In this document: in pieces, positions 502-22,648 of the stretch
How the letters are laid out: every line of letters starts with the position of its first letter
How positions within the stretch are numbered: the stretch's first letter is position 1
Virus record (IMG/VR): IMGVR_UViG_3300023312_000045
DNA length: 23,598 nt
From: a virus
Taxonomy: Duplodnaviria > Heunggongvirae > Uroviricota > Caudoviricetes
Direction: 5' to 3' (one strand)
Position numbers and translations under genes: made by a program
Notes under the pieces: generated by a model
Told to the model about the DNA's origin: nothing
Seen by the model: only the letters and a program-made list of their open reading frames with translations
The model's database searches: none

Positions 502-516
502 TTACCACAACGGTAA
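502..516. promoter_or_regulatory. TTACC-N5-GGTAA inverted-repeat site E, upstream of terS, embedded in tandem direct repeat ACTATTACCAC
   Basis: tTTACCacaacGGTAA read at 502-516; a second degenerate copy TTACCacggtGGTTA follows at 520-534; terS ATG at 534. Confidence 0.5.
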
Positions 517-533
517 CTATTACCACGGTGGTT

Positions 534-1130
534 ATGATGCCTGCTGAACCTAAAACCTATAAACGCAAATCAACGCAATTTAAGCCACTAACAGCAATGC
601 AGGAGGCTTATTGCCAGTCATACATCAAAACGCCTGAAAACCAGACTCAGGCAGCGATTAACGCAGGATTCTCCCCAAATACAGCGGCAGTTAAAGCCAG
701 TGTCATGATGCGCGATGAACGCATTCAAAAACGGATTGCCGAGCTGATGGAAGAGCGCAACAAACGAATGCGCGTCAGTGCTGATTACGTTCTCATGCGC
801 CTGGTGGAGATCGACCAGATGGACGTGATCGACATCCTCAACGACGATGGGAGCCTTAAGCCAATCCGCGAGTGGCCGAAAATCTGGCGCACTACGCTTA
901 GTGGCTTTGATCTGTCATCGACCATCATGAACATGAACGAGGATTCGATAGAGACAATCCTCAAAAAAATTAAATGGCCTGACAAGGTGAAGAACCTCGA
1001 ACTGATTGGTAAGCACGTCGACGTCAACGCATTCAAAGAACGCCTGGATGTTAATGTGAATGTGACAATTGCTGATCGCATAGCGGCAGCCAGGAAGAGA
1101 CTGAAAGAACGTCAGGATGGCAATCAGTGA
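534..1130 (+). CDS. Terminase small subunit
   Basis: Segment LTAMQEAYCQSYIKTPENQTQAAINAGFSPNTAAVKASVMMRDERIQKRIAELMEE matches the conserved core of P27-type small terminases as recalled; immediately upstream of and overlapping terL. Start moved from ORF-track 456 to ATG 534 because the upstream part overlaps the terminator hairpin. Confidence 0.8.
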   Translation: MMPAEPKTYKRKSTQFKPLTAMQEAYCQSYIKTPENQTQAAINAGFSPNTAAVKASVMMRDERIQKRIAELMEERNKRMRVSADYVLMRLVEIDQMDVIDILNDDGSLKPIREWPKIWRTTLSGFDLSSTIMNMNEDSIETILKKIKWPDKVKNLELIGKHVDVNAFKERLDVNVNVTIADRIAAARKRLKERQDGNQ

Positions 1131-2602
1131 CAGATACAGCGTTATCTCCTGAAGAGCAGTTAATCGAGGATATTGCAGGGTTCACTCACGATCCGCTTGG
1201 CTATGCCCTCTATGCGTTCCCATGGGGGGAAGAGGGGACTGAACTGGCACATGCCACCGGCCCACGTCAGTGGCAGGCTGATGCGTTCCGAGAGATACGT
1301 GATCACCTGCAGAATCCAGAGACGCGCTATCAGCCGCTTATGCTGGCACGCGCTTCTGGTCACGGTATTGGTAAATCCGCATTCATCTCAATGCTGATCA
1401 ACTGGGGCATGTCCACTTGCGAGGATTGTAAGGTCGTGGTGACCGCCAACACCGACAACCAGCTACGAACGAAGACCTGGCCGGAAATTATCAAGTGGTC
1501 GAACCTTGCTATCACGAAAGACTGGTTTACCTGTACCGCTACCGCGATGTACAGCAATGACCTAGGGCACGACAAGCGGTGGCGGGCTGACGCAATACCC
1601 TGGTCTGAGCACAACACCGAGGCATTCGCCGGACTACACAACGAGCGCAAACGCATCATCGTGGTGTTTGATGAAGCGTCGAACATTGCGGATCTGGTGT
1701 GGGAAGTTGCCGAGGGTGCGCTTACGGACGAAGACACTGAGATTATCTGGGTGGCGTTCGGAAACCCTACACGTAACACCGGGCGTTTTCGCGAATGTTT
1801 CCGCAAATATAAACACCGCTGGAAAACTGCGCAGATTGACAGCCGGACGGTGGAAGGCACTAACAAACAGCAGTTGCAGAAATGGGTTGATGACTACGGG
1901 GAAGACAGCGACTTCGTTAAAATCCGTGTGCGTGGCATATTCCCTGATGCATCTGAATTGCAGTTTATCCCTACCGGTCTTACTGACGAGGCAATGAAAC
2001 GGGTGGTAACCGCTGCGCAGGTTGCACATGCTCCGGTGATAATCGGCGTTGACCCGGCATACTCCGGCGTTGATGACGCTGTGATATACCTGCGGCAGGG
2101 GCTACACAGTAAGGTGCTGTGGACTGGCAACAAGACTACCGACGATCTGATTATGGCGAAGCGTATCGCTGACTTTGAAGACCAGTATCAGGCTGACGCG
2201 GTGTTCATCGACTTCGGTTACGGAACCGGTTTGAAGTCAATCGGTGACGGCTGGGGTCGTACATGGCAACTTGTTCCGTTCGGTGGCGCGTCTACTGACC
2301 CGCAGATGCTCAACAAGCGTGGGGAGATGTTCAATTCATGCAAGACATGGCTGAGGCTGGGCGGCATGCTGGATGACCAGGAAACAGCAGACGACCTGTC
2401 GGCGGCAGAGTACAAAGTTCGAGTGGACGGTAAAATCGTTATCGAACCGAAGGAAGATATCAAAGAGCGACTTGGGCGTTCTCCTGGTAAAGGCGATGCG
2501 CTACTGCTGACGTTTGCTTTCCCGGTCTCGAAACGCATAAATATACCTGGACAGCAAAGCCAGCAGGGAAGGGCCATAACGGATTATGACCCTTATGCTT
2601 AA
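1127..2602 (+). CDS. Terminase large subunit
   Basis: 491 aa; P-loop-like GHGIGKS motif; position between terS and portal; GTG start overlapping the terS stop. Confidence 0.8.
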   Translation: MTDTALSPEEQLIEDIAGFTHDPLGYALYAFPWGEEGTELAHATGPRQWQADAFREIRDHLQNPETRYQPLMLARASGHGIGKSAFISMLINWGMSTCEDCKVVVTANTDNQLRTKTWPEIIKWSNLAITKDWFTCTATAMYSNDLGHDKRWRADAIPWSEHNTEAFAGLHNERKRIIVVFDEASNIADLVWEVAEGALTDEDTEIIWVAFGNPTRNTGRFRECFRKYKHRWKTAQIDSRTVEGTNKQQLQKWVDDYGEDSDFVKIRVRGIFPDASELQFIPTGLTDEAMKRVVTAAQVAHAPVIIGVDPAYSGVDDAVIYLRQGLHSKVLWTGNKTTDDLIMAKRIADFEDQYQADAVFIDFGYGTGLKSIGDGWGRTWQLVPFGGASTDPQMLNKRGEMFNSCKTWLRLGGMLDDQETADDLSAAEYKVRVDGKIVIEPKEDIKERLGRSPGKGDALLLTFAFPVSKRINIPGQQSQQGRAITDYDPYA

Positions 2603-2652
2603 TCCGCTGGTGGGGATAATACTGCTGATATCCTCTGGTGAGGATAAAACAA

Positions 2653-2677
2653 AGCCAGCTCATCGGCTGGCTGTTTG
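2653..2677 (+). terminator. Terminator-like hairpin after terL (AGCCAGC-TCATCG-GCTGGCT then GTTTG)
   Basis: 7-bp stem read directly; weak T tract; immediately followed by palindrome copy 2. Confidence 0.4.
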
Positions 2678-2688
2678 TGACATGTCAC
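2677..2688. repeat. 12-bp perfect palindrome GTGACATGTCAC, copy 2 of 3
   Basis: Exact sequence at 2677-2688 between the convergent terL (+) and 2693..3067 (-) genes. Confidence 0.9.
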
Positions 2689-2692
2689 GGTG

Positions 2693-3067
2693 TTATTGCT
2701 CGCTTAACTTCTGCTTCAGCAAGTAACCTTCGAGCATCCAGATTTTGTTTACAGCATTCTGCCGGGCAATCTTCCGACCAATTTCTGCATCAAAGTTTTC
2801 CGGGCTTGCACAGGCACTCTCTCCGGTAACGGTGAAGCCATTCTTCAGTACCAATACGCAGAAAGTGAGAAGGTGCAGAGCATCAGGGGTGGCTTCGACA
2901 TAAGGCTCCGGATTATAAATAAGGTCATCTTCTTTAGCCTGGTGGTCACCCTGCGCAGCAGTGAAAAAATGCTCACTGCAAATGAGGCCTTCAATTTTCT
3001 CGGGTGTTACACGCGGAGCGGTTTTGCCTTTCTCAACGATTTCTTTTTCGATTTGCTGGTCGTTCAT
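2693..3067 (-). CDS. Hypothetical moron protein (124 aa), opposite strand to the flanking late genes
   Basis: ORF with AAGGTGAG Shine-Dalgarno 11 nt upstream; inserted between terL and portal; possibly a gp49/Sf6 gene 66-like phage protein (weak recollection only). Confidence 0.5.
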   Translation of the reverse strand: MNDQQIEKEIVEKGKTAPRVTPEKIEGLICSEHFFTAAQGDHQAKEDDLIYNPEPYVEATPDALHLLTFCVLVLKNGFTVTGESACASPENFDAEIGRKIARQNAVNKIWMLEGYLLKQKLSEQ

Positions 3068-3078
3068 AATCTCACCTT

Positions 3079-3102
3079 AAAAAAATGCCCGGCGAACCGG
3101 GC
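3079..3102 (-). terminator. Rho-independent terminator/attenuator hairpin directly upstream of the 124-aa gene RBS
   Basis: Minus-strand reading GCCCGG-UUCG-CCGGGC followed by AUUUUUUU, then AAGGUGAG and AUG. Confidence 0.55.
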
Positions 3103-3185
3103 GAACTGGAAGCAATGAGTTATGCCTTCCGTGGCTGTACGGGTTTACAGCATGAAGTCATCGCAATGGCGTCCTGCTGTAAAAA

Positions 3186-3222
3186 GGGCGGTGATAGTCC
3201 TTCAAGGGAAACTATCACCGCC
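3186..3222 (-). terminator. Rho-independent terminator downstream of the tRNA (12-bp perfect stem, 12-nt loop, then CUUUUU on minus strand)
   Basis: GGCGGTGATAGT / ACTATCACCGCC inverted repeat read at 3187-3222 with A-tract 3181-3185 on the + strand. Confidence 0.65.
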
Positions 3223-3265
3223 AAGCACCTGGAACTTCTGGCATCACGGTCCTTAGGCGTGATTC

Positions 3266-3342
3266 TGGCGTGGCATGCAGGATTCGAACCTGCGACCAAC
3301 CGCTTAGAAGGCGGTTGCTCTGTCCAACTGAGCTAATGCCAC
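3266..3342 (-). tRNA. tRNA-Arg (anticodon UCU), phage-encoded argU-like
   Basis: Reverse complement folds as a canonical cloverleaf: acceptor GTGGCAT/ATGCCAC, D-stem GCTC/GAGC, anticodon stem ACCGC/GCGGT with loop CTTCTAA (anticodon TCT), T-stem GCAGG/CCTGC with TTCGAAT loop, discriminator G and encoded CCA. Confidence 0.88.
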
Positions 3343-3664
3343 AACGCTGAGAGCACTTAGCCTGTTAAGGCGCCACACTTTGTCGCGGCTCCATAAATGC
3401 TCTCATCGTTGTACCCTCGTCTCTTCCGAGGCGTCACACCGAATCGCCGGGATGGTGAATCCCCGTGCGCGGAATAAAACCGCTCGACTTGCACATTCCG
3501 GCTACCTGGTTCGTTTGCCCGAGCAAGGGAGGGTGCCCCTTAAACGTATCCAGACCGCTATCGGCGCATGTGCCATACGCCGTACTGCTCAAAATAAAAG
3601 CTCACTCCACCTGTTTAATTTAACGACAAGCCAGTCAGGTTAGTAACCAGAATGAGCCCTTTGG

Positions 3665-3679
3665 TTACCTGAAAGGTAA
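3665..3679. promoter_or_regulatory. TTACC-N5-GGTAA site A, upstream of the portal operon; followed by TAATTA -10-like hexamer
   Basis: TTACCtgaaaGGTAA read at 3665-3679; identical 17-mer TTACCTGAAAGGTAATA also present at site B. Confidence 0.55.
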
Positions 3680-3726
3680 TAATTAACGCGTTAAATGTCA
3701 ACCTTCTACGATAAATAAATCATATG

Positions 3727-3741
3727 TGGTTAAATTGGTAA
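3727..3741. promoter_or_regulatory. Degenerate second site TGGTT-N5-GGTAA within shared CATATGTGGTT...GGTAATA element (portal operon leader)
   Basis: catatgTGGTTaaattGGTAAtaa at 3721-3743; the same element occurs upstream of the tailspike gene. Confidence 0.4.
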
Positions 3742-3769
3742 TAATTTAATTGCGTACGGAGTCATTGAT

Positions 3770-3976
3770 ATGTGCATGGGTAGCTCACCATCAGTGCCTG
3801 CAACACCAGAAGTTCAGGCAGCACCACAGGAGCAGGATGCCGCCGTTGTTGATGCCCGCGACGAAGAAACACGTCGCCGTCGCGCTGCTGCTGGTCGTAG
3901 TTCTACGCTGCTTACCGGTTCTCAGGGCGACACATCAACCGCTAATACCAGCGGTAAAACGCTGCTTGGTCAGTAA
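3770..3976 (+). CDS. Small hypothetical protein (68 aa), low-complexity, first gene of the portal operon
   Basis: ORF with the same 12-nt RBS context CGGAGTCATTGA as the portal gene; no recognisable domain. Confidence 0.4.
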   Translation: MCMGSSPSVPATPEVQAAPQEQDAAVVDARDEETRRRRAAAGRSSTLLTGSQGDTSTANTSGKTLLGQ

Positions 3977-3990
3977 CCGGAGTCATTGAA

Positions 3991-5670
3991 ATGGCGGAAA
4001 CAACTAAAGAGCGATTGAACAAACAGTTCGCACAACTTGAAAGCGAGCGTCAGTCGTTCGAGCCGCACTGGCGCGAGTTGAGTGATTACATCAACCCGCG
4101 TGGTTCCCGCTTTCTGACTTCTGAAGTCAACCGTAACGATCGACGCAATACACGCATTATTGATTCGACCGGGACTATGGCGGCGCGCACTCTCGCCAGC
4201 GGCATGATGTCAGGCATCACAAGCCCTGCGCGTCCGTGGTTTCGCCTGGCTACGCCAGATCCTGAAATGATGGATTATGGTCCTGTTAAGTTGTGGCTCG
4301 AGGCGGTGCAGAACCGCATGAACGATATGTTCAATAAGTCGAATCTCTACCAGTCTCTTCCGCAGTTATACGGAAGCCTCGGCACATACAGCACTGGTGC
4401 AATGGCGGTGCTGGAGGATGACGAGGACATCATTCGCACAATGCCATTCCCGATAGGCAGTTACTACCTGGCTAACTCACCTCGTGGCAGTGTGGACACC
4501 TGTTTTCGCAAGTTCTCTATGACTGTTCGTCAGCTTGTTCAGGAGTTCGGGCTAAATAACGTCAGCGAATCCGTAAAAAGCATGTGGGAAAGCGGCACCT
4601 ACGAGAAGTGGATTGAAGTGATGCATTCGGTTTACCCGAACATTGACCGCGATACATCGAAGCTGGATAGCAAGAACAAGCCATTCAAATCGGTTTATTA
4701 CGAGGTTGGTGGCGATAACGACAAGTTGTTGCGTGAGTCCGGATTCGATGAGTTTCCAATTATGGCTCCGCGCTGGGAAGTTAACGGCGAAGATGTTTAT
4801 GGATCATCATGCCCGGGTATGCTGGCGCTTGGACCTGTTAAGGCATTGCAGCTTCTCCAGAAGCGCAAGTCGCAGTTGATTGATAAAGCCACCAATCCGC
4901 CGATGGTTGCTCCGACTTCCCTCAAGAATCAGCGCGCCTCCCTTCTTCCTGGCGACATCACGTATATCGATCAGATTACTGGTCAGGATGGTTTCAGGCC
5001 TGCTTATCTGGTTAACCCCAGTACAGCAGATTTGGTGGCAGACATTCAGGACACTCGTCAAATCATTAACAGCGCCTACTTTGTCGATCTGTTCATGATG
5101 TTGCAGAACATCAATACCCGCTCGATGCCTGTGGAAGCGGTGATCGAAATGAAAGAAGAAAAACTTCTGATGTTGGGGCCGGTTCTGGAGCGCCTGAACG
5201 ACGAATGTCTTAATCCTCTCATTGATCGCTCTTTCTCGATGATGGTGCGTAAAAACATGCTGCCGCCACCGCCTGACGCGATGGAAGGCATGCCCCTGAA
5301 GGTCGAATACATTTCCGTCATGGCTCAGGCGCAGAAGTCTATCGGCCTGTCCAGTCTGGCGTCCACGGTTAACTTCATTGGTCAACTTGCGCAAGCGAAA
5401 CCAGAAGCTCTCGACAAACTCAACGTTGATCAGGCGATCGATGCATTCGCTGATATGTCCGGAGTGTCTCCAACCGTCATTGTTCCGCAGGAACAGGTTG
5501 AGCAGGCTCGCCAGCAACGGGCACAGCAACAACAGCAGCAACAAATGATGGCGATGGGGATGGCGGCGGCACAGGGTGCCAAGACGCTAAGTGAAGCTAA
5601 AACTTCGGATCCGAGTGTTTTGTCAGCTATGGCGAATGCAGTTAGTGGTCAGGGTGGGCAATCACAATGA
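3991..5670 (+). CDS. Portal (head-to-tail connector) protein, T7 gp8-type
   Basis: 559 aa; the N-terminal LASGMMSGITSPARPWFRL region and the Q/A/M-rich C-terminus (QQRAQQQQQQQMMAMGMAAAQG) resemble the T7 connector as recalled; lies after the terminase genes. Confidence 0.8.
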   Translation: MAETTKERLNKQFAQLESERQSFEPHWRELSDYINPRGSRFLTSEVNRNDRRNTRIIDSTGTMAARTLASGMMSGITSPARPWFRLATPDPEMMDYGPVKLWLEAVQNRMNDMFNKSNLYQSLPQLYGSLGTYSTGAMAVLEDDEDIIRTMPFPIGSYYLANSPRGSVDTCFRKFSMTVRQLVQEFGLNNVSESVKSMWESGTYEKWIEVMHSVYPNIDRDTSKLDSKNKPFKSVYYEVGGDNDKLLRESGFDEFPIMAPRWEVNGEDVYGSSCPGMLALGPVKALQLLQKRKSQLIDKATNPPMVAPTSLKNQRASLLPGDITYIDQITGQDGFRPAYLVNPSTADLVADIQDTRQIINSAYFVDLFMMLQNINTRSMPVEAVIEMKEEKLLMLGPVLERLNDECLNPLIDRSFSMMVRKNMLPPPPDAMEGMPLKVEYISVMAQAQKSIGLSSLASTVNFIGQLAQAKPEALDKLNVDQAIDAFADMSGVSPTVIVPQEQVEQARQQRAQQQQQQQMMAMGMAAAQGAKTLSEAKTSDPSVLSAMANAVSGQGGQSQ

Positions 5671-5963
5671 CAGATTACGAAGACGATCAACTGAAAGAAG
5701 AAAACGCCCGTAAGCAACGTGACATGGCGCAGCGTGAAATTGATGACATTCGCTTTGTCATGAGCAGTGAACAGGGGCGTCGCGTTGTCTGGTCGGTGCT
5801 GGAGAAAGGCCGTGTGTTTTCCGCTATCTCACCGATGGACGCTATGGCAATGGCATTTAATGAGGGGCAACGCAATCTGGCGCTGGAACTGTTTCAGCGC
5901 GTTATGGCGCATTGCCCTGAACAGTATTTGAAGATGGCCAAAGAGGCCAGTGAACAGGAGTGA
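5667..5963 (+). CDS. Small conserved head-assembly-associated hypothetical protein (98 aa)
   Basis: ATGA overlap with the portal stop; acidic helical protein between portal and scaffold. Confidence 0.5.
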   Translation: MTDYEDDQLKEENARKQRDMAQREIDDIRFVMSSEQGRRVVWSVLEKGRVFSAISPMDAMAMAFNEGQRNLALELFQRVMAHCPEQYLKMAKEASEQE

Positions 5964-5965
5964 TC

Positions 5966-6661
5966 ATGAATTTATTTGAGCGTTTGCTGTATCGCCGTAT
6001 TTGCAATGAGCAACCAGTCGATGGTGGAGCAGCTCCGGCTGCGTCAGAACCGTCAGCGCCTGCAGGTGATAACCCTGCTCCAGTTGGTGATCCATCACAA
6101 CAGGAAGGTGATAAGCCACAACCTGTTGCTGATGGCGATAAACCTGCTGATGACAAAAAGCCTGAAAACGATAAGCAGGATGAAAAAAAGGACGGCGATA
6201 AACCAGAGGGTGCGCCTGAAAAGTACGAGTTTCAGGCTGCCGAAGGCGTAGAGCTGGATACAGAAGCGTTGAAGGAATTCGAGCCGGTGGCGCGAGAACT
6301 AAACCTGACCAACGAGCAAGCGCAAAAGCTGGTTGATGCTTATCCGAAGATTCTGGCAGGTGTTCAGCAGCGCCAGGCAGAAGCCTGGCAGAAAACAACC
6401 GAGCAGTGGGCTGCGGATGTAAAAGCCGACAAAGAAATCGGTGGCGACAAGTTGATTTCTAACCTTAGCGCCGCACAGCGTGCGCTTGACCAGTTCGGGA
6501 CACCTGAACTCAAAGAATATCTGAACACCACCGGGCTGGGTAATCACCCTGATCTGGTCAAAACGTTCGTGAAAATCGGAAAGGCGATGTCTGAAGATGG
6601 CATGGTCACCGGTGGTAATGAAGGCCAGCGTAGTGCGGCCGAAGTGCTCTATGGCAAATAA
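5966..6661 (+). CDS. Scaffolding protein (putative)
   Basis: Position between portal and major capsid; acidic Pro/Asp/Lys-rich repeats (GDKPxxD) in the N-terminal half and helical C-terminal half; AACAGGAG RBS before ATG 5966. Confidence 0.6.
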   Translation: MNLFERLLYRRICNEQPVDGGAAPAASEPSAPAGDNPAPVGDPSQQEGDKPQPVADGDKPADDKKPENDKQDEKKDGDKPEGAPEKYEFQAAEGVELDTEALKEFEPVARELNLTNEQAQKLVDAYPKILAGVQQRQAEAWQKTTEQWAADVKADKEIGGDKLISNLSAAQRALDQFGTPELKEYLNTTGLGNHPDLVKTFVKIGKAMSEDGMVTGGNEGQRSAAEVLYGK

Positions 6662-6675
6662 GAGAGGAAATGACA

Positions 6676-7662: not shown

Positions 7663-7678
7663 CGCCTGTTATTAACCT

Positions 7679-7698
7679 GTGGGTCGTAACAGACCCAC
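7679..7698 (+). other. Intergenic hairpin (GTGGGTC-GTAACA-GACCCAC) after the capsid gene; possible RNA processing or partial terminator site
   Basis: 7-bp perfect stem read directly; no T tract. Confidence 0.35.
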
Positions 7699-15577: not shown

Positions 15578-15578
15578 C

Positions 15579-17276: not shown

Positions 17277-19825
17277 TGGCAGCAAACGAATTTTTGACGC
17301 AGTGCGAGCGCAGTGTAAATGCTGCCGCTGGTCGCGAGCTTTCTTCCGATGAGATGGAGTCGCTGGTGCGTGACATGAACGACACCACTAGGCGAATTCT
17401 GGCGACCAATGAGGCGCTGTCTCTGGAAGAGGCCGCGATGCGCGCAGCGGAAGAACTGAGCAATGCCGATATGCTGGCAAAACAGATTGAGGCTCGCAAT
17501 AAGGCAATCAACGCCCGTATTGCCGCACAACGACTTAGAGAGCTTCGTACTATCTGGAAAGACCGCCCGGATATCGGGCTTGAAGCAATGCTGGTTGGCC
17601 GCAACGATGCGCGTACCGGCGCCCGCCGGTCGGTATCTTCGGAGGTGGCGCAACTGCGCGGCAAGTATCATTCCGGTATCAACTACGATTTTGACCGTGC
17701 CGGGCTGGTGCAATTCATCGCCAGCGGCAGCAATGACCGGGAAATTGCCGATGCAATGTGGCGCATAGGGCGCGGGCAGTCAACTGACGGTATGACAAAG
17801 CAATCCGTAAGCGCTGCACAAATCATCATGAAATGGCAGGAAACTGCGCGTATTGATGAGAACCGCGCCGGGGCATGGATACGCAAAGAGCCGGGCTATA
17901 TAGTGCGCCAGTCACACGACATCATGAAGATCCGCGCCGCAGGTTATGAAGCATGGCGAAATGCTATTCTCCCGCGCCTTGATGAGCGCACTTTTGACGG
18001 CGTGGCTGACCGCGAGCAGTTCATGCGTAACATTTATAACGGGCTGGCTTCCGGCGTGCATCTTACATCTGAAAAGCCCGATTGGATGAATGGCTTTAAG
18101 GGATCGGCGAACGCAGCTAAACGCGCCAGCCAAGAGCGAATTTTGCACTTCAAAGATGGTATCTCGTGGCACGAGTACAACCAGCAATTCGGCACCGGCA
18201 GCCTGCGAGAAGCGCTGTTTGGTGGCTTAAACAGCGCTGCCCGCACAACGGGCATGATGCGCGTACTGGGCACTAACCCACAGAACATGTTTAAGTACCT
18301 GACGGACGCCATTGCTGAAGATATCAGCAAATCCGGAAGACCGGCAGCGTTGGCTGACTACATGACGAAGGTGCGTCGCATTAACCGTACCGTAATGCCG
18401 CAGGTTGACGGCTCGCTAAATATTCCTGGCAGCGTAGGCTGGGCCAATGCGTCGGCGGCTGTACGCGGCTGGTTGCGTATGAGCCAACTTGGTGGCGCGG
18501 TAATCTCATCGTTTAACGACGTGCCTATCGCCGCTACCGAGATGCGCTACCAAGGGCAGAATTTTATGCAGGCGTTGCTTGGTGCTATGAGAGGCCGCTT
18601 CACGCGTTACAACAGCGCGAAGCAGAAAGAGATCCTTTCCTCTATCGGAGTTTATTCCGACTCCATGACGCAGGAAATCATCCGGCGCATATCTGGTGAT
18701 GACACGCTGAATGGAAAGCTTGGTCGCGCGCAGCAGCTTTTCTTTAAGTACAACCTCATGAACTTCTGGACCGAGAGCGGTCGCAACAGCAACGCCATGA
18801 TGATAACCAACTGGCTTGCAAAGAATGCTGACCAGTCTCATGCGCGGCTACCGGAAGACCTGCGACGCGTGCTGGATCTGCACGGTATTGGCGAACGTGA
18901 GTGGGAAATTTTTCGCAACATGGACATGGCCGATAGCGAAGGTCGTAAGTTCATGACGACCAGCGGCATCCGCGGCGTGCCTGACGAAGTGATTGCCGGT
19001 TATGTAGAGAGTAAGGGGATCAAACCAACGCAGCGCGCTATCGCTGACGCACGCGATCAATTGGAAGGGCAGTTGCGCGGCTACATCCTTGACCGTCTGA
19101 ATATCGCCATGTCAGAGCCTGGCGATCGCACGCAGGCGTTTATGAAGATGGGCACGGTGCCAGGAACGGTGGCTGGGGAAGCAATACGATTCGCTGGTCA
19201 GTACAAATCGTTCACTGCAAGCTTCATGCAGAACGTACTAGGACGCGAAGTATTCGGGCGTGGTTATATTCCTGCTGGGCTTGGTGAGTCGAAAACCGGA
19301 TCGCTGACGAATGCGCTGCTACGTAACGGGAAGGGGGCTTTCCTTGGTGCTGCAAACCTCTTTGTCTGGGCGACTATGTTTGGTTATATCTCCATGCAGT
19401 CAAAACTCATGCTGAAAGGGCAAACACCACGCCCGGCAGATGCCAAGACGTTTCTCGCAGCCGCATCTCAGGGGGGCGGTCTTGGCATCTTGGGTGACTT
19501 CATGTTTGGTGAGGTCAACCGCATGGGGGCCGGGCCGGTTACGTCGCTAATGGGGCCAGCAGCATCGAACGCTGACAGCATTATCACGCTGCTCCAGCAG
19601 ACCACGAGAGGGGATGCAGATTTGGGTGACTGGTATCGCACGGCACTTGACAATACGCCATTCCTCAACGTGTTCTGGCTTCGTACGGCGATGAATGGTT
19701 TAATATTGAACCGGATACAAGATGCCCTTGACCCAGGCTCTCTTGAGCGTTATCAGCGCCGTGTTGAGCGTGAGCAGGGTAACGACTTTCTGATCCCACC
19801 ATCGCAGTTCATGCTAGGTAAATAA
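17276..19825 (+). CDS. Large internal virion/ejection protein (gp16-like role)
   Basis: 849 aa; last large gene of the ejection block; hydrophobic stretches near the C-terminus; TGATG overlap with the upstream gene. Confidence 0.55.
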   Translation: MAANEFLTQCERSVNAAAGRELSSDEMESLVRDMNDTTRRILATNEALSLEEAAMRAAEELSNADMLAKQIEARNKAINARIAAQRLRELRTIWKDRPDIGLEAMLVGRNDARTGARRSVSSEVAQLRGKYHSGINYDFDRAGLVQFIASGSNDREIADAMWRIGRGQSTDGMTKQSVSAAQIIMKWQETARIDENRAGAWIRKEPGYIVRQSHDIMKIRAAGYEAWRNAILPRLDERTFDGVADREQFMRNIYNGLASGVHLTSEKPDWMNGFKGSANAAKRASQERILHFKDGISWHEYNQQFGTGSLREALFGGLNSAARTTGMMRVLGTNPQNMFKYLTDAIAEDISKSGRPAALADYMTKVRRINRTVMPQVDGSLNIPGSVGWANASAAVRGWLRMSQLGGAVISSFNDVPIAATEMRYQGQNFMQALLGAMRGRFTRYNSAKQKEILSSIGVYSDSMTQEIIRRISGDDTLNGKLGRAQQLFFKYNLMNFWTESGRNSNAMMITNWLAKNADQSHARLPEDLRRVLDLHGIGEREWEIFRNMDMADSEGRKFMTTSGIRGVPDEVIAGYVESKGIKPTQRAIADARDQLEGQLRGYILDRLNIAMSEPGDRTQAFMKMGTVPGTVAGEAIRFAGQYKSFTASFMQNVLGREVFGRGYIPAGLGESKTGSLTNALLRNGKGAFLGAANLFVWATMFGYISMQSKLMLKGQTPRPADAKTFLAAASQGGGLGILGDFMFGEVNRMGAGPVTSLMGPAASNADSIITLLQQTTRGDADLGDWYRTALDNTPFLNVFWLRTAMNGLILNRIQDALDPGSLERYQRRVEREQGNDFLIPPSQFMLGK

Positions 19826-19827
19826 TA

Positions 19828-20388
19828 ATGAAGGCAATTATATTTTTTGTTTCAATATTGATGTCTGCATTTTCTTTTGCAGGGCAAAATGTTAAATGCG
19901 AACTTCAATACTTTGGAGATAGCGATAAATTTAAGGTAACTCAGTTTTCTTTTATGGGGATTCCATCTGATTCATACCTTTATACCTGTGCCGACTGTGG
20001 AGGCATCCAGATAAACGTGTTCCCATCTATTCAGACTGTTGCTTCCTACTCATTTGAAAACAACATTGATTTCGAAAGGAAAATCAATGCTGAATACAAC
20101 AGAAAAGACATAGCTAAACTTGAGATGGAAAACGTTACTCAAGGCGGGAGAATAAAATATTCAATCACCGATACTGGTTTGGCAGAGTTTTACCCAGAGG
20201 GCAAAAAGATAAGCTACCTCTACTTTTTAGCCAAGCAACAAAATGGTAAAGAACAAGTAGGTTATTCAGGATTTGTTACCTCTAACGGGGATAAGTCATG
20301 CTCAATTATTGCGACATATCCAGGAAAAGAAATTTCTTTTCTGGGAAGTAAATCTTTAAGCTACTTTATGAATCATATATCAATGTAG
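19828..20388 (+). CDS. Secreted/periplasmic hypothetical protein with Sec-type signal peptide (moron)
   Basis: N-terminus MKAIIFFVSILMSAFSFAGQ has n-h-c signal peptide organisation; coding DNA looks AT-rich relative to flanking virion genes; followed by a terminator. Confidence 0.6.
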   Translation: MKAIIFFVSILMSAFSFAGQNVKCELQYFGDSDKFKVTQFSFMGIPSDSYLYTCADCGGIQINVFPSIQTVASYSFENNIDFERKINAEYNRKDIAKLEMENVTQGGRIKYSITDTGLAEFYPEGKKISYLYFLAKQQNGKEQVGYSGFVTSNGDKSCSIIATYPGKEISFLGSKSLSYFMNHISM

Positions 20389-20389
20389 C

Positions 20390-20401
20390 GTGACATGTCA
20401 C
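20390..20401. repeat. 12-bp perfect palindrome GTGACATGTCAC, copy 3 of 3
   Basis: Exact sequence at 20390-20401, 2 nt after the stop of the 186-aa gene and abutting the terminator hairpin. Confidence 0.9.
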
Positions 20402-20426
20402 AGGCCGCTTTCGCGGCCTTGTTTTT
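20402..20426 (+). terminator. Rho-independent terminator (AGGCCGC-TTTC-GCGGCCT then TGTTTTT)
   Basis: Perfect 7-bp stem and T tract read directly. Confidence 0.75.
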
Positions 20427-20586
20427 AACGAATGCCACCGCCGCCAGGGCGGGAATCCGCAGAACGCCCACCGCAGCGGGAGCCGTCAGCAGCAGTGTCG
20501 CTGTCGTGCTGACAACGACCGGCAAAGGCCTGAGTTGAAGCTACCAGAGACAACAAAACGAACAGTGCAGCAAATGCTTTTTTCAT
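20425..20586 (-). CDS. Small secreted peptide precursor (53 aa: signal peptide plus about 31-aa mature Gly-rich peptide with two Cys)
   Basis: Internal Met of ORF 20425..20658 gives MKKAFAALFVLLSLVASTQAFA|GRCQHDSDTAADGSRCGGRSADSRPGGGGIR; the ORF-track upstream extension overlaps a terminator. Sits in a short patch that looks GC-rich, so an ORF artefact is possible. Confidence 0.35.
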   Translation of the reverse strand: MKKAFAALFVLLSLVASTQAFAGRCQHDSDTAADGSRCGGRSADSRPGGGGIR

Positions 20587-20655
20587 TGTGAAATTTCCAT
20601 CTATAAGCCACCTCAATGTGGCGTCAATGAGTGTAGCACTGACTTTTGTTTCGTC

Positions 20656-20681
20656 CACAAAAAAGCCCGCAACGCGGGCTT
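20656..20681 (-). terminator. Rho-independent terminator ending the 62-aa/110-aa operon
   Basis: Minus-strand AAGCCCGC-GUU-GCGGGCUU followed by UUUUUUGUG. Confidence 0.75.
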
Positions 20682-20683
20682 AT

Positions 20684-21016
20684 TCAGTTATTTACTTTCT
20701 TTGGCACTATTGCTGATAATGAGATCATAAAGCCAGTTAGAGCAGCAATAATTAATGGGAATATGAAAGCATCTGAAGTTCTCAGTGGATTCTTCATATC
20801 GAACAGAATAACAATGAAGAATGCGCTGGTTGCAAAAGTAGATGATGAATAAACCTCATTCATCTTGTATTGCAACTTATCCAAAGAAAAAGGAGGCGTA
20901 TCTTTGCAAACGGCATCCCATATCAGATGAACAGCAAGATAAGCAATGCACAGTATGAAATAAAACCTTGTCAATTGCTGTGCATCTCTGGGCGCAAGCC
21001 AAGATAAATCAGGCAT
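20684..21016 (-). CDS. Small integral membrane protein (110 aa, about 3 predicted TM helices); candidate immunity/partner protein
   Basis: Hydrophobic segments FYFILCIAYLAVHLIW, FATSAFFIVILF, AFIFPLIIAALTGFMISLSAIV; start lies 1 nt after the stop of the upstream 62-aa gene (translational coupling). Confidence 0.55.
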   Translation of the reverse strand: MPDLSWLAPRDAQQLTRFYFILCIAYLAVHLIWDAVCKDTPPFSLDKLQYKMNEVYSSSTFATSAFFIVILFDMKNPLRTSDAFIFPLIIAALTGFMISLSAIVPKKVNN

Positions 21017-21017
21017 T

Positions 21018-21206
21018 TTAGTTGGCTAACTTCTTTGCGGCATAGATAGCAGGGAGTGCAACAGCACCAGCCACAGCAAATGCATAGGCTATCCCAGCTG
21101 TAACAGTAAAAGCAGGAAGCAGGAAAGATAATCCGCCTGGTAGGGCAAAGCCTAAGCCCGCTCCGCCAATAATGGCCTTCAGCAATGTAATGATGTTGAT
21201 TTCCAT
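21018..21206 (-). CDS. 62-aa glycine-zipper hydrophobic membrane peptide (holin-like or toxin-like)
   Basis: Strong RBS GAGGGGG 4 nt before ATG; sequence MEINIITLLKAIIGGAGLGFALPGGLSFLLPAFTVTAGIAYAFAVAGAVALPAIYAAKKLAN is almost entirely Gly/Ala/hydrophobic with a KK-containing C-terminus. Confidence 0.55.
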   Translation of the reverse strand: MEINIITLLKAIIGGAGLGFALPGGLSFLLPAFTVTAGIAYAFAVAGAVALPAIYAAKKLAN

Positions 21207-21232
21207 GTTTCCCCCTCATGTAAACTCTCGGT

Positions 21233-21247
21233 TTACCTTTGGGGTAA
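21233..21247. promoter_or_regulatory. TTACC-N5-GGTAA site D, 27 bp upstream of the 62-aa gene start
   Basis: TTACCtttggGGTAA read at 21233-21247. Confidence 0.5.
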
Positions 21248-21318
21248 TAGTACTCTATTCACCCCCAGTCTGCAATCTGTACAGAATTATTTAAAGGCAC
21301 GTCCCTGTGCCGCCGCCG

Positions 21319-21975
21319 TCAGAAGAACCCTGCCTTGTCGTTGATGTACTCCGCGTGGGTCTGGATATCACGCAGGCATTTGCTCACACCGACGATGTAG
21401 CAGAACATGGTGGTCAGTTCCGCCGCCGCGCCCGATACATCGTGCCCGTCTTCCTGTAACTGGTTCAGCAGATTCATCAGCAGTGAGTTCTCCGTCAGGC
21501 CGAGAACACCAGACGGCGAATGAATCAGGCTGCGGTAGCCGGGCTTCAGTGGGGCGCTGTATTCTTTTTTGTCTTCCAGCTTGATCGCCTCCATTATGGC
21601 GGGCATGAAGCCTGACAAGACCTTCTCCACTTTTGTTTCTTGTTGTCTTAAACGTTTCTCGCATTCAATGAAGTAGCGTCGCACCTGGCGACCTTTTTCG
21701 TTACGCTCGACCATCGCCAGCTCTTTGGCTGTATCAAGGGTGAGGTGGTACTCTTTGCGGTTGTGGCCGCCTCTACCAGATGTTTGCTTTCCCAAATTGG
21801 AAAGCAAAATATAGTCTTGATTTTCAATGAATTCGTATTCTGATATGCGATTTGTAATCCATGCTGCAAACACCTTTTTAACACCTAAAAAAGCGTGCAG
21901 ATCGCGGGCATTACAAAGTAGGGCTGTTTCGTTAGATATAGTGCCGTTGAATACGGGGATGAGTTGAGCGTTCAT
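21319..21975 (-). CDS. Phage antirepressor, AntA-type N-terminal domain plus KilAC/ANT-like C-terminal domain
   Basis: N-terminal region ([29 protein letters not shown]...[33 protein letters not shown]) matches the AntA antirepressor domain as recalled; C-terminal 70 aa are paralogous to the 90-aa protein at 22293..22565. Confidence 0.75.
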
Positions 21976-22004
21976 GATGGCGTCTCCACTTAGCGAATTA
22001 CATC

Positions 22005-22052
22005 ACCACCGCTGAGACCAATCAGATGGTGGTGAACTGAACGGAGTTGGTC
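22005..22052 (-). other. Pseudoknot-capable structured element in the antirepressor leader
   Basis: Interleaved complementary hexamers: ACCACC (22005-22010) with GGTGGT (22028-22033), and GACCAA (22016-22021) with TTGGTC (22047-22052). Confidence 0.3.
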
Positions 22053-22133
22053 TTACCGGCCTAAGTGGTACCGGCGTCCTTTCGGACCCCCATTCAGCCC
22101 ACCATAATTCTGGCATGACTGTGCTATACGCAT

Positions 22134-22156
22134 AAAAAAACCACGTCTGGCGTGGT
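22134..22156 (-). terminator. Rho-independent terminator between the two antirepressor-family genes
   Basis: Minus-strand ACCACG-CCAGA-CGUGGU followed by UUUUUUU. Confidence 0.7.
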
Positions 22157-22167
22157 ATGCGCCACTT

Positions 22168-22220
22168 AGTAATCCGGGAGACCAATCCCGGCACTGGATT
22201 TTGCCAGTGCCCGATTACTA
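22168..22220 (-). other. Structured RNA element (two hairpins enclosed by a 7-bp outer stem) upstream of the terminator; candidate 3'UTR-derived or regulatory RNA
   Basis: AGTAATC...GATTACT outer stem enclosing CCGGGA-GACCAA-TCCCGG and CACTGG-ATTTTG-CCAGTG hairpins, read directly. Confidence 0.3.
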
Positions 22221-22246
22221 TGGCACAAGAGGAGTTCGATGTAAAT

Positions 22247-22261
22247 TTACCGCAAAGGTAA
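22247..22261. promoter_or_regulatory. TTACC-N5-GGTAA site C, downstream of the 90-aa gene
   Basis: TTACCgcaaaGGTAA read at 22247-22261. Confidence 0.5.
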
Positions 22262-22292
22262 TAATAAACACTCCACTTGGTAATTGCAAACC

Positions 22293-22565
22293 TTATCTGG
22301 TTTGCTTTCGTAATTGTTCGGCACAATAGTCGAGATGTGTTTGCAGATCCTGCATAGACATCTGTGAGCTGGTGACGTAGTTAATCAGTGCAGTCAGTTC
22401 GGCAAGTGGGCCATCGACATTAAATCCATCCTTATCGAGATCCCGGAGTAATTTCATCAAGTGCGATCCCTCCACCAGTGACCTGACGCCTCCCGGCGTG
22501 TGAATCCTTTCGGTAAATCCGTCTTCCAGTGGATAGTGATACTGCTGCATCTTAATCTTCTCCAT
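22293..22565 (-). CDS. Small antirepressor-family protein (stand-alone KilAC/ANT-like domain), LexA-controlled
   Basis: 90 aa; RSLVEGSHLMKLLRDLDKDGFNVDGPLAELTALINYV aligns with [47 protein letters not shown] of the 218-aa antirepressor; a LexA box lies 5 bp upstream of the start. Confidence 0.7.
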   Translation of the reverse strand: MEKIKMQQYHYPLEDGFTERIHTPGGVRSLVEGSHLMKLLRDLDKDGFNVDGPLAELTALINYVTSSQMSMQDLQTHLDYCAEQLRKQTR

Positions 22566-22570
22566 GCAAT

Positions 22571-22590
22571 AACTGTATATTTATACAGTA
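22571..22590. promoter_or_regulatory. LexA (SOS) box AACTGTATATTTATACAGTA
   Basis: CTGT-N8-ACAG with AT-rich spacer, 18 of 20 matches to the TACTGTATATATATACAGTA consensus; in the divergent region between the 90-aa gene and the tailspike gene. Confidence 0.75.
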
Positions 22591-22620
22591 GCAAATAATT
22601 TGTTTGCTATCCAGCACGTT

Positions 22621-22648
22621 TTGCAAATTACCTGAAAGGTAATATCTA
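22621..22648 (+). promoter_or_regulatory. Candidate sigma70 promoter for tailspike: -35 TTGCAA, 16-bp spacer, -10 TATCTA, with TTACC-N5-GGTAA site B (22628-22642) inside the spacer
   Basis: Hexamers and spacing read directly; operator-in-spacer geometry is typical of repressible promoters. Confidence 0.45.

What the first reader, a model, noticed from the sequence alone, without database searches (positions are those of the whole stretch)
502..22642. Recurrent 15-bp inverted repeat TTACC-N5-GGTAA at five operon-proximal positions
Exact TTACC-N5-GGTAA occurs at 502-516 (before terS), 3665-3679 (before the portal operon), 21233-21247 (before the 62-aa/110-aa operon), 22247-22261 (after the 90-aa gene) and 22628-22642 (inside the spacer of the candidate tailspike promoter, between -35 TTGCAA and -10 TATCTA). 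Sites A and B share an identical 17-mer (TTACCTGAAAGGTAATA). A motif with 10 specified positions is expected about 0.02 times by chance in 23.6 kb, so five copies, all intergenic and all near operon starts, is a strong signal for a dedicated DNA-binding regulator (repressor-like operator geometry) or an RNA hairpin recognised in the leaders. No obvious ribbon-helix-helix or HTH regulator gene was seen in the window, so the cognate factor may lie elsewhere in the prophage. I scanned by eye, so further copies may exist.
Basis: seen in the sequence. Interest (0 to 1): 0.6.

Follow-up and report, generated by a model that had tools for sequence, protein, structure and literature searches.

The report
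Prophage repressor operators at many promoters
The repeated TTACC-N5-GGTAA palindrome is almost certainly the docking site of the master repressor of an epsilon15/phiV10-type E. coli prophage; the same sites are already annotated in phage epsilon15, so it is a genuine but largely known regulatory element.

Summary
All five exact TTACC-N5-GGTAA copies are at the stated coordinates; none is expected by chance. The window is the late region of a Uetakevirus (epsilon15/phiV10/SPC32H-type podovirus) prophage of E. coli.

In eight related elements the same palindrome occurs 2-3 times on each side of the CI-like repressor gene rep, a homologue of SPC32H Rep (PDB 5D50). It also occurs at the same syntenic late positions. 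The epsilon15 GenBank record already labels those sites 'repressor' binding sites. Every exact copy in four complete relatives lies outside credible genes, and 150 kb of host chromosome has none. An RNA-hairpin reading has no covariation support.

Corrections:
- The shared 17-mer joins sites B and E, not A and B.
- Sites A, C and D are fused to predicted -10 hexamers.
- Site D heads an isrK/C4 RNA-antirepressor module resembling P1 immI.
- Site B overlaps a leftward promoter-like site with a perfect -35, pointing at a tRNA-Arg gene.
- The '90-aa gene' is Ant, the LexA-controlled antagonist of Rep.

A second conserved element, CATATNNGGTT, lies downstream of sites B and E and remains unexplained. 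Rep binding was not tested here. Novelty is low.

The parts
502..516 (.). Operator A (exact). It lies just before terS and is fused to a predicted extended -10.
   Evidence: TG(494-495)-g-TACTAT(497-502), where the last T of the -10 is the first T of TTACC. TG(G/T)T(A/G)CTATTACC is conserved in 5 phages. The orthologous epsilon15 site 12-27 is annotated 'repressor'.
520..534 (.). Operator A' (1 mismatch, TTACCACGGTGGTTA). It is 18 bp from A and abuts the terS ATG, which by alignment to epsilon15 is at 537.
   Evidence: The same 18-bp pair occurs in epsilon15 (12/30), Tyrion (67/85) and phiv142-3 (26472/26454).
465..490 (+). Intrinsic terminator that closes the early-right operon. It separates the gp49-like gene (74-415) from the terS promoter and operators.
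   Evidence: GCCGCC-AACTAT-GGCGGC followed by TTTATTTT. Conserved in 5 phages. Annotated as a terminator in epsilon15 at 39646-39672.
3665..3679 (.). Operator B (exact), in the divergent region between the leftward tRNA-Arg/gp66-like genes and the rightward gp3-portal operon.
   Evidence: The half-sites are invariant in 5 phages while the flanks diverge. The orthologous epsilon15 site 2931-2947 is annotated 'repressor'.
3673..3701 (-). Predicted leftward promoter: perfect -35 TTGACA (3701-3696), 17-nt spacer, -10 TACCTT (3678-3673) inside operator B. It points at tRNA-Arg(tct) 3266-3342(-) and the gp66-like gene 2693-3067(-).
   Evidence: score 12.5, the best in the region. TGTCAA on the + strand is conserved in 5 phages. 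tRNA. The TSS has not been mapped.
3721..3741 (+). Second conserved element CATATGTGGTT (3721-3731), overlapping a half-consensus site TGGTT-N5-GGTAA (3727-3741) whose centre is 62 bp from the centre of operator B.
   Evidence: The block from CATATG to the GGAG ribosome-binding site is nearly invariant in 5 phages and has no indels. Function unknown.
21233..21247 (.). Operator C (exact), fused to a predicted leftward promoter for the 62-aa and 110-aa genes (21206-21018 and 21016-20684, - strand).
   Evidence: Minus strand: TTGCAG(21275-21270), 17-nt spacer, TACTAT(21252-21247), with the last T of the -10 being the first T of the operator. phiv142-3 has an equivalently placed exact site with the same TACTAT fusion at 6153. 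The E. coli prophage L004 has only a 1-mismatch site hereabouts (38718), next to different genes.
22247..22261 (.). Operator D (exact), at the head of the isrK/C4/AntA-like operon on the - strand.
   Evidence: It lies at -7..+8 of minus-strand TTGCAA(22289-22284)-N17-TATTAT(22266-22261). It also abuts the -35 of TTTACA(22245-22240)-N17-TGcCATAGT(22222-22217), whose predicted start coincides with the start of the isrK model. Tyrion and phiv142-3 have both the site and the RNAs. SPC32H has neither; epsilon15 also lacks the site but was not scanned for the RNAs.
22025..22210 (-). isrK-like sRNA (22134-22210, ending in a terminator) and C4-type antisense RNA (22025-22109).
   Evidence: Rfam hits above the gathering scores: 67.7 and 61.2 bits.
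21319..21975 (-). 218-aa AntA-domain antirepressor-like protein. Its C-terminal ~75 residues are homologous to the small Ant.
   Evidence: Pfam AntA 4.2e-26. PHROG 377, and phrog_450 over residues 135-216. 42% identity to Ant, E = 3e-20.
22293..22550 (-). ant: the small antirepressor that inactivates Rep (SPC32H type, 85 aa from the ATG at 22550).
   Evidence: 88% identical to SPC32H Ant. The Ant-Rep complex is described in PMC9638917 and PMC9986798.
22573..22588 (.). LexA box CTGTATATTTATACAG, overlapping the predicted ant promoter.
   Evidence: Read directly from the sequence. The CTGTAT and ATACAG arms are conserved in 5 phages. That LexA controls ant in SPC32H is recalled from Kim & Ryu 2013, which could not be retrieved here.
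22628..22642 (.). Operator E (exact), in the ant-tailspike divergent region, 1 nt after a conserved TGCAA(A) -35-like hexamer (22621-22626) and 105 nt before the tailspike ATG (22747).
   Evidence: (A/T)TGCAAATTACC...GGTAATA is conserved in 5 phages. The orthologous epsilon15 site 19895-19911 is annotated 'repressor'. phiV10 carries a 1-mismatch version.
22672..22709 (+). Second element CATATGTGGTT (22672-22682), a half-consensus site TGGTT-N5-GGTAA (22678-22692; 50 bp centre to centre from E), the conserved GGTAATAGAAT, and an inverted copy of the element (22699-22709).
   Evidence: Function unknown.
74..415 (+). gp49-like 113-aa protein (PHROG 536 'transcriptional regulator') with invariant CxxC...CPC...C...H residues. 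It was considered as an alternative binder and rejected.
   Evidence: A 79%-identical homologue sits in a lambdoid prophage that has neither motif within 20 kb.

Best explanation
TTACC-N5-GGTAA (extended form aTTACC-N5-GGTAAt) is the operator of the prophage's master repressor Rep. Rep is a CI-like protein with an N-terminal HTH domain, homologous to SPC32H Rep, and its gene lies outside the window.

The two 5-bp half-sites are one helical turn apart, which suits a pair of HTH domains. In the lysogen, Rep bound at these sites would keep the flanking promoters shut:
- At A (terS), C (62-aa/110-aa genes) and D (isrK/C4/AntA-like operon) the operator begins at the last base of a predicted -10 hexamer. 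It would cover about -7 to +8 and block RNA polymerase.
- At B it covers the -10 of a leftward promoter-like site aimed at tRNA-Arg and the gp66-like gene. It also lies about 40-55 bp upstream of the still unmapped portal promoter.
- At E it sits just after a conserved -35-like hexamer upstream of the tailspike gene.

On DNA damage, LexA leaves the ant promoter. Ant, encoded in the window, pulls the Rep tetramer off DNA, and all these units fire. Release of site D would switch on a second, Ant-related antirepressor and so reinforce the switch.

What is shown: the motif, its enrichment, its conservation, its placement at the rep gene and its intergenic position.
What is inferred: Rep binding itself, the promoter positions, and the feedback loop.
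For: (1) Placement at the rep gene. In epsilon15, SPC32H, Tyrion, phiv142-3, the closest E. coli prophage, Klebsiella BUCT711, and prophages of Pseudocitrobacter and Pseudescherichia, 2-3 copies lie between rep and the divergent cro-like gene. Another 2-3 lie just past the 3' end of rep. The spacings recur: 17/30 or 48 bp on the first side, and 62-63 bp (plus a third site at 76 bp in epsilon15 and SPC32H) on the second.
(2) The epsilon15 authors annotated the orthologues of A, B and E, together with the OL-like cluster, as 'protein_bind: repressor'.
(3) The Rep of this phage type matches SPC32H Rep (PDB 5D50, E = 3.5e-42), and residues 1-73 are strongly conserved. The motif is unchanged in phages whose Rep proteins are only 43-45% identical.
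(4) Phylogenetic footprint: the half-sites are invariant while the central 5 nt and the flanks diverge.
(5) All 40 exact copies in four complete genomes lie outside credible genes. Two of them, in Tyrion, overlap one doubtful annotated ORF. 150 kb of host DNA has none.
(6) Fusion to -10-like hexamers at A, C and D (TACTAT, TACTAT, TATTAT) scores above the 95th percentile of background hexamers.
(7) Site D occurs in the genomes that carry the isrK/C4/ant module and is absent from SPC32H, which lacks the module.
(8) In phage ZX5, 98% identical to the window over 56% of it, repressor overexpression cut holin and endolysin transcripts by more than 99.9% (PMC9782041).
(9) Rep is a tetramer that binds palindromic sites and is dismantled by Ant (PMC9638917; PMC9986798).
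Against: No binding experiment could be consulted. The two primary SPC32H papers and the epsilon15 genome paper are not in the held library, so I cannot confirm that the operator sequence was determined experimentally. The epsilon15 annotation may be purely bioinformatic.

rep is not in the window. Its presence is inferred from near-identical prophages (99.2% identity).

At B (rightward) and E no convincing sigma-70 promoter overlaps the operator, and the -10 proposed at E is weak and not conserved. Direct repression of the portal and tailspike promoters is therefore the weakest step.

A Cro-like protein may share the same sites, as in lambda.
Confidence: 0.85

Rival explanations
1. The sites act as RNA hairpins in mRNA leaders, recognised by a protein or acting as processing or attenuation signals.
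For: The motif is a perfect 5-bp inverted repeat, and all copies lie in untranslated regions near gene starts.
Against: The predicted hairpins are weak (-3.3 to -5.9 kcal/mol) and have no U-tract. The sequence itself is conserved, not just the pairing: 40 exact copies, 23 one-sided variants that break pairing, and only 2 compensated variants, both inside genes. Copies at OL/OR and at A, C and D overlap or precede predicted transcription starts. Rfam finds no family at the sites.
Confidence: 0.03
2. The late-region copies are bound mainly by a different phage regulator, either the Cro-like protein or a late activator such as the gp49-like protein, rather than by Rep.
For: By analogy with lambda and P22, Cro proteins share operators with the repressor. 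A cro-like gene (PHROG 35) lies divergent from rep. The gp49-like protein has a predicted strand-helix-helix core and a Cys-rich C-terminus, and it sits directly before terS. Sites B and E lack a convincing overlapping promoter, which would suit an activator site.
Against: A 79%-identical gp49 homologue lies in the nin region of a lambdoid Salmonella prophage. That 20-kb stretch spans the immunity, Q, lysis and terminase genes and has no copy of either motif. The gp49-like model is of low confidence (pLDDT 62.8) and has no fold match. The late copies have exactly the same sequence as the copies flanking rep. Co-binding by a Cro-like protein is not excluded, but it would add to Rep binding rather than replace it.
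Confidence: 0.1
3. The copies are chance matches, remnants of a duplicated sequence, or targets of a restriction-modification or methylation enzyme with a bipartite recognition site.
For: The phage family encodes DNA methyltransferases, and bipartite sites with a fixed gap resemble Type I recognition sequences.
Against: No copy appeared in any shuffle. The flanks of the five copies are unrelated apart from the 2 extra bases shared by B and E. Strict intergenic placement next to promoters and conserved 18/48/62-bp pairing is not what an enzyme target would show.
Confidence: 0.02

Closest known systems
Repressor binding sites annotated in Salmonella phage epsilon15 (GenBank AY150271.2 / NC_004775.2)
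   Same: The same palindrome (TTACC-N5-GGTAA) occupies the same syntenic positions: before terS (12-27), before gp3/portal (2931-2947), in the gp19(ant)-tailspike gap (19895-19911), and in clusters next to the repressor gene gp38.
   Different: The window comes from an E. coli phiV10-type relative whose public records do not annotate the sites. Sites C and D, which serve accessory modules, have no epsilon15 counterpart. My scan also adds epsilon15 sites that its record does not list: 24704, 33341, 33358, 35969, and the 1-mismatch site at 33388.
SPC32H Rep-Ant-LexA lysogeny switch (PDB 5D50, 5D4Z)
   Same: The Rep family is shared (E = 3.5e-42) and Ant is 88% identical. A LexA box precedes ant, ant and the tailspike gene are divergent, and an operator lies between them.
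   Different: Full-length Rep identity is only 43%. SPC32H has no isrK/C4/AntA-like module and no sites C or D. I could not read the primary papers to see which operators were tested.
Phage P1 C1 repressor with dispersed operators, and the immI region (Op51-P51-c4-icd-ant)
   Same: A single master repressor has many operators scattered over the genome. One of them heads an operon that encodes a C4 antisense RNA followed by an antirepressor; site D, the C4 RNA (Rfam RF01695) and the AntA-like gene fit this layout. The description of P1 is from my own knowledge.
   Different: As I recall, the P1 C1 operator is asymmetric, whereas here the site is a symmetric palindrome for an HTH protein. An isrK-like RNA precedes C4. 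An icd equivalent was not looked for.
Gifsy-1 isrK-orf45-anrP locus (PMC4825925)
   Same: An isrK sRNA with a terminator that is partly read through is followed by an antirepressor-like gene transcribed from the isrK promoter.
   Different: In the window the module sits in a podovirus next to the Rep/Ant switch and carries a Rep operator at its head. The antirepressor here has an Ant-like C-terminus.
Lambda CI operators OL/OR with cooperative binding and looping
   Same: Palindromic HTH operators are clustered on both sides of the repressor gene and overlap divergent promoters. Binding of an oligomeric repressor to paired sites is plausible.
   Different: As I understand it, lambda CI has no operators at late-gene promoters, and late genes are controlled by Q antitermination. 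Here operators precede nearly every transcription unit. Induction is by an antirepressor rather than by RecA-stimulated cleavage.

Membership tests
Uetakevirus (epsilon15/SPC32H-type) Rep operator | A 15-17-bp palindrome aTTACC-N5-GGTAAt | tested here: met
   Five exact copies plus one 1-mismatch partner in the window. The consensus is the same in 8 related elements.
Uetakevirus (epsilon15/SPC32H-type) Rep operator | Clusters of the same motif on both sides of the rep gene in the same element | tested here: met
   Met in the closest complete relatives: L004 at 10250/10312 and 11024/11072, and L003. It cannot be tested within the window, which does not include rep.
Uetakevirus (epsilon15/SPC32H-type) Rep operator | The element encodes a Rep homologue with a conserved N-terminal HTH domain | tested here: met
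   The Rep of near-identical prophages matches 5D50 at E = 3.5e-42. Rep is found in 37 phage records, including all close relatives of the window.
Uetakevirus (epsilon15/SPC32H-type) Rep operator | Orthology with sites already annotated as repressor-binding in epsilon15 | tested here: met
   Sites A, B and E align with epsilon15 12-27, 2931-2947 and 19895-19911.
Uetakevirus (epsilon15/SPC32H-type) Rep operator | Physical binding by Rep and Rep-dependent repression | not testable with these tools
   This needs EMSA, footprinting, ChIP or reporter assays. The only indirect support is the ZX5 overexpression result.
Promoter-overlapping (steric) operator | The operator overlaps the -35, -10 or transcription start of the controlled promoter | tested here: inconclusive
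   By prediction this holds for A, C, D and the leftward promoter at B. It is unclear for the portal and tailspike promoters. No transcription start has been mapped.
Structured RNA element or hairpin | Compensatory base changes that preserve pairing; a stable stem | tested here: not met
   Only 2 compensated variants against 23 one-sided ones, with stems of -3.3 to -5.9 kcal/mol. No Rfam match at the sites.
P1 immI-like module (site D only) | A C4-type antisense RNA followed by an antirepressor gene, behind a promoter that carries the master repressor's operator | tested here: met
   C4 at 61.2 bits and isrK at 67.7 bits. AntA domain. Operator D at the predicted promoters. An icd-like ORF and the C4 target sites were not examined.
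LexA (SOS) box at ant | CTGT-N8-ACAG overlapping the promoter | tested here: met
   CTGTATATTTATACAG at 22573-22588, conserved in 5 phages. LexA binding itself was not tested.

The most novel reading that the evidence does not exclude
Rep may act as a direct, genome-wide lock on essentially every transcription unit of these podoviruses: early, 'late' structural, tRNA, moron and antirepressor units. On this reading there would be no separate late-gene cascade.

One tetramer would clamp promoters through phased site pairs. These are full plus full sites at 62 or 48 bp in the early regions, and full plus half-consensus sites (TGGTT-N5-GGTAAT) at 62 bp (portal) and 50 bp (tailspike).

The Rep-controlled isrK/C4/AntA~Ant module would add a positive feedback loop that makes LexA-triggered induction irreversible.

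The unassigned element CATATNNGGTT, present at the portal, tailspike and lysis promoters, would be the target of a factor not yet identified.
Probability: 0.3. Interest if true: 0.55.

Novelty: new member of a known kind. Interest (0 to 1): 0.3.

Why it matters
It explains how this common family of E. coli and Salmonella prophages stays silent: a single repressor has sites in front of the packaging, head, tailspike and accessory operons. This family includes serotype-converting phages and the O157 reporter phage phiV10.

It gives an operator map for the E. coli members; neither their database records nor the ZX5 paper read here (PMC9782041) describe one. It also corrects the terS start and shows that a second antirepressor module sits under Rep control.

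For engineering, for example reporter phages or obligately lytic derivatives, these are the sites to mutate.

As biology it largely extends what is annotated for epsilon15 and known for SPC32H.

Tried and rejected
(1) Primary literature. Kim & Ryu 2013, Kim et al. 2016 and Kropinski et al. 2007 could not be retrieved by DOI or PMC id. Statements about LexA control and operator experiments therefore rest on secondary citations and my own recollection.
(2) The gp49-like protein as cognate binder or late activator. It has no Pfam, NCBIfam or PDB sequence match. The AlphaFold model reached only pLDDT 62.8 and Foldseek found nothing. A close homologue sits in a lambdoid prophage that has neither motif. 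Rejected as the binder.
(3) RNA hairpin reading. Rejected on energy and covariation grounds.
(4) Strict sigma-70 consensus scan. It found no promoter at sites A, B, C or E. A weighted scan gave the candidates reported here, but nothing convincing for the rightward portal and tailspike promoters.
(5) Sodalis phage phiSG1 as a heteroimmune comparator. The record is a mosaic with a P22-like module and is not a clean relative, so I did not analyse it.
(6) Literature search for late promoters of phiV10 or epsilon15: nothing relevant.
(7) A scan of public genomes with the Rep protein returned only two extra loci, because the search uses close peptide words. Both confirmed the OL/OR arrangement.

Full report
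OBSERVATION. A pattern search finds exactly five exact copies of TTACC-N5-GGTAA, at 502, 3665, 21233, 22247 and 22628. None appeared in 100 dinucleotide-preserving shuffles. One detail is wrong: the identical 17-mer TTACCTGAAAGGTAATA is shared by 3665 and 22628, not by the first two sites. Allowing one mismatch adds a partner at 520-534, 18 bp from the first site. It also adds a hit inside a gene at 20190 that is probably chance.

WHERE THE WINDOW COMES FROM. The window is the late region of a Uetakevirus, a temperate podovirus of the epsilon15/phiV10/SPC32H type. It is 97-98% identical to the E. coli phages phiv142-3, phiV10, TL-2011b and ZX5 over the 56-65% of the window that aligns, and about 76-81% identical to Salmonella phage epsilon15 and Enterobacter phage Tyrion over 36-51%. 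The best chromosomal match, at 99.2% identity over 95% of the window, is a prophage next to guaA in an E. coli genome.

Gene order in the window is as follows:
- a gp49-like gene (74-415) and a terminator (465-490);
- terS and terL;
- a leftward gp66-like gene and tRNA-Arg(tct) (3266-3342);
- gp3, portal, head and tail genes;
- a leftward accessory block: 110-aa and 62-aa genes, a 218-aa AntA-like gene, and the 85-90-aa gene;
- the start of the tailspike gene at 22747.

WHAT THE MOTIF IS. The epsilon15 GenBank record annotates 'protein_bind: repressor' features at 12-27 (before terS), 2931-2947 (before gp3/portal) and 19895-19911 (before the tailspike gene). It annotates three more just beyond the 3' end of the repressor gene gp38, and one further downstream. 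All of these are TTACC-N5-GGTAA.

I scanned complete relatives: epsilon15, SPC32H, Tyrion and phiv142-3, the closest E. coli prophage and Klebsiella phage BUCT711. I also scanned two further rep loci, from Pseudocitrobacter and Pseudescherichia. All eight show the same layout:
- 2-3 copies between rep and the divergent cro-like gene, spaced 17 and 30 bp, or 48 bp;
- 2-3 copies just past the 3' end of rep, spaced 62-63 bp, with a third site at 76 bp in epsilon15 and SPC32H;
- in the complete genomes, a 62-bp pair inside the early-right operon;
- a conserved 1-mismatch copy before int, in all but epsilon15 written TTACCTTAAAGGTAT or similar;
- copies before terS, before gp3/portal and in the ant-tailspike gap.

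The repressor of this phage type is a homologue of SPC32H Rep (PDB 5D50, E = 3.5e-42), with a strongly conserved N-terminal 73 residues. The motif stays the same in phages whose Rep proteins are only 43-45% identical overall.

In alignments of five phages the half-sites are invariant, while the central 5 nt and the flanks diverge. All 40 exact copies in four complete genomes lie outside credible genes; two of them, in Tyrion, overlap one doubtful annotated ORF. A sample of 150 kb of host chromosome, plus the host flanks of the prophage, has none.

RIVALS. An RNA-hairpin role is not supported. The stems are weak (-3.3 to -5.9 kcal/mol). The sequence is conserved rather than the pairing: 40 exact copies, 23 one-sided variants, and 2 compensated variants that both lie inside genes.

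The gp49-like protein just upstream of terS caught my attention. PHROGs calls its family a transcriptional regulator. It has invariant CxxC...CPC...C...H residues and a predicted strand-helix-helix core. However, the model is of low confidence and has no fold match. More tellingly, a 79%-identical homologue sits in the nin region of a lambdoid Salmonella prophage. That 20-kb stretch has no copy of either motif. It is therefore not the cognate binder.

A Cro-like protein may well share the operators, as in lambda. That would add to Rep binding, not replace it.

HOW EACH SITE IS PLACED (predictions; no transcription start is mapped).

Site A. An extended -10, TG-g-TACTAT (494-502), ends on the first T of the operator. 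The block is conserved in five phages. The terminator at 465-490 lies inside the annotated TTG-456 terS frame. By homology to epsilon15, the real terS start is therefore the ATG at 537, directly after the second operator A'.

Sites C and D. Both show the same fusion on the minus strand: TTGCAG-N17-TACTAT|TACC for C and TTGCAA-N17-TATTAT|TACC for D. An operator placed like this covers about -7 to +8, the classic position for blocking RNA polymerase.

What site D controls. Rfam finds an isrK-like sRNA (22134-22210) and a C4 antisense RNA (22025-22109) between site D and the AntA-like gene. A second promoter-like match, TTTACA-N17-TGcCATAGT, abuts the operator, and its predicted start coincides with the start of the isrK model. 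Tyrion and phiv142-3 have the site together with both RNAs; SPC32H has neither. This layout mirrors two known systems. One is the Gifsy-1 isrK-orf45-anrP operon (PMC4825925). The other, from my own knowledge, is P1 immI, in which a C1 operator heads the c4-icd-ant operon.

Site B. The best promoter-like match in the region points leftward: a perfect TTGACA, a 17-nt spacer, and TACCTT inside the operator. Its -35 is conserved in five phages. It aims at tRNA-Arg and the gp66-like gene.

The proposed -10 (TATCTA) is weak and not conserved.

THE CIRCUIT AROUND THE SITES. The '90-aa gene' is Ant, 88% identical to the SPC32H antirepressor. It is preceded by a near-consensus LexA box (22573-22588) that is conserved in five phages. 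Held papers state that Rep binds palindromic DNA as a tetramer and that tetrameric Ant breaks it into dimers (PMC9638917). They also state that the C-terminal tetramerisation domain of Rep resembles those of loop-forming regulators, and that its repression mechanism 'has not been extensively characterized' (PMC9986798).

The 218-aa AntA-like protein carries a C-terminal segment 42% identical to Ant. Since it lies behind operator D, derepression could reinforce itself. That is an inference.

In phage ZX5, repressor overexpression lowered holin and endolysin transcripts by more than 99.9% (PMC9782041). This is consistent with repression of late genes but does not prove it is direct. That paper does not describe operator sequences.

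AN UNEXPLAINED SECOND ELEMENT. CATATNNGGTT occurs three times in the window (3721, 22672, and inverted at 22699-22709), against 0.18 expected. It lies 41 and 29 nt downstream of the ends of operators B and E respectively. It is also present before the lysis genes of epsilon15, SPC32H and Tyrion, and beside several operators in their early regions.

At the portal and tailspike genes it overlaps a half-consensus site, TGGTT-N5-GGTAAT. The centre of that site is 62 bp from operator B and 50 bp from operator E, with no indels across five phages. These distances are the same as, or close to, those of the full operator pairs next to rep (62 and 48 bp). This suggests, but does not show, that one tetramer bridges a strong site and a weak site across each promoter. 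I could not assign a binder or a promoter role to this element.

VERDICT. The element belongs to a known kind, since the same sites are annotated in epsilon15 and the Rep/Ant/LexA switch has been characterised in SPC32H.

Three things appear to be new here: the operator map for the E. coli members, the link of site D to an isrK/C4/antirepressor module, and the link of site B to a tRNA promoter. Rep binding and the promoter positions remain to be tested experimentally.

Noticed in passing
window 3721-3731, 22672-22682, 22699-22709(-); also L006 24751, L005 24829, L007 26455/34218/35388/37318: A second recurrent element, CATATNNGGTT, which is partly palindromic (AACC-N6-GGTT-like). It occurs 3 times in the window against 0.18 expected, and every exact copy found in the five phage sequences scanned lies within about 60 bp of a Rep operator. 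It is present at the portal, tailspike and lysis promoter regions of relatives but not before terS. No binder or role could be assigned.
   Followed up: partly
window 22025-22210 (- strand): An isrK-like sRNA and a C4-type antisense RNA (Rfam, 67.7 and 61.2 bits) lie upstream of the AntA-like gene. The arrangement resembles P1 immI and the Gifsy-1 isrK-anrP locus, here inside a podovirus prophage.
   Followed up: partly
window 21319-21975 (- strand): The 218-aa protein combines an N-terminal AntA domain with a C-terminal ~75 residues that are 42% identical to the small SPC32H-type Ant. The element therefore encodes two Ant-related proteins, one behind a LexA box and one behind a Rep operator.
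   Followed up: partly
window 22573-22588: A near-consensus LexA box (CTGTATATTTATACAG) overlaps the predicted ant promoter. It is conserved in five phages.
   Followed up: partly
window 456-540: The terS start used in the phiV10 and RefSeq annotations (TTG 456) places an intrinsic terminator and both operators inside the gene. The ATG at 537 matches the annotated terS starts of epsilon15, SPC32H, Tyrion and phiv142-3 and is the likelier start.
   Followed up: yes
window 3266-3342 (- strand) and 3673-3701: tRNA-Arg(tct) lies downstream of a leftward promoter-like site with a perfect TTGACA -35. The -10 of that site sits inside operator B. The + strand ORF 3085-3336, annotated in phiV10 as p04, overlaps the tRNA and is probably spurious.
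   Followed up: partly
window 74-415: The gp49-like 113-aa protein has an invariant Cys/His pattern (C80, C83, C92, C94, H107; C100 in all but one of 26 sequences) and a predicted strand-helix-helix core. Homologues also occur in the nin region of lambdoid prophages. Function unknown.
   Followed up: partly
relatives: L004 10250/10312 and 13305/13367; L007 34195/34257 and 37265/37327; L006 32555/32617 and 35907/35969; L011 4210/4272; L016 2147/2209; L017 2148/2210: Operator pairs keep an exact 62-bp centre-to-centre spacing across the genus, about six helical turns. The pairs on the other side of rep keep 48 bp, or 17 and 30 bp. This suggests cooperative binding of one Rep tetramer to two sites.
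   Followed up: partly
relatives: L004 4996, L005 26960, L006 26882, L007 28568, L003 39129: A conserved 1-mismatch operator variant (TTACCYTAAAGGTAT) lies just upstream of the integrase gene, next to attP/attL, in five related elements.
   Followed up: no
window 22672-22709: In the E. coli phages only, the tailspike leader carries an 11-nt inverted repeat (CATATGTGGTT ... AACCAGATATG) around the conserved GGTAATAGAAT. It has no U-tract, so it does not look like a terminator.
   Followed up: no
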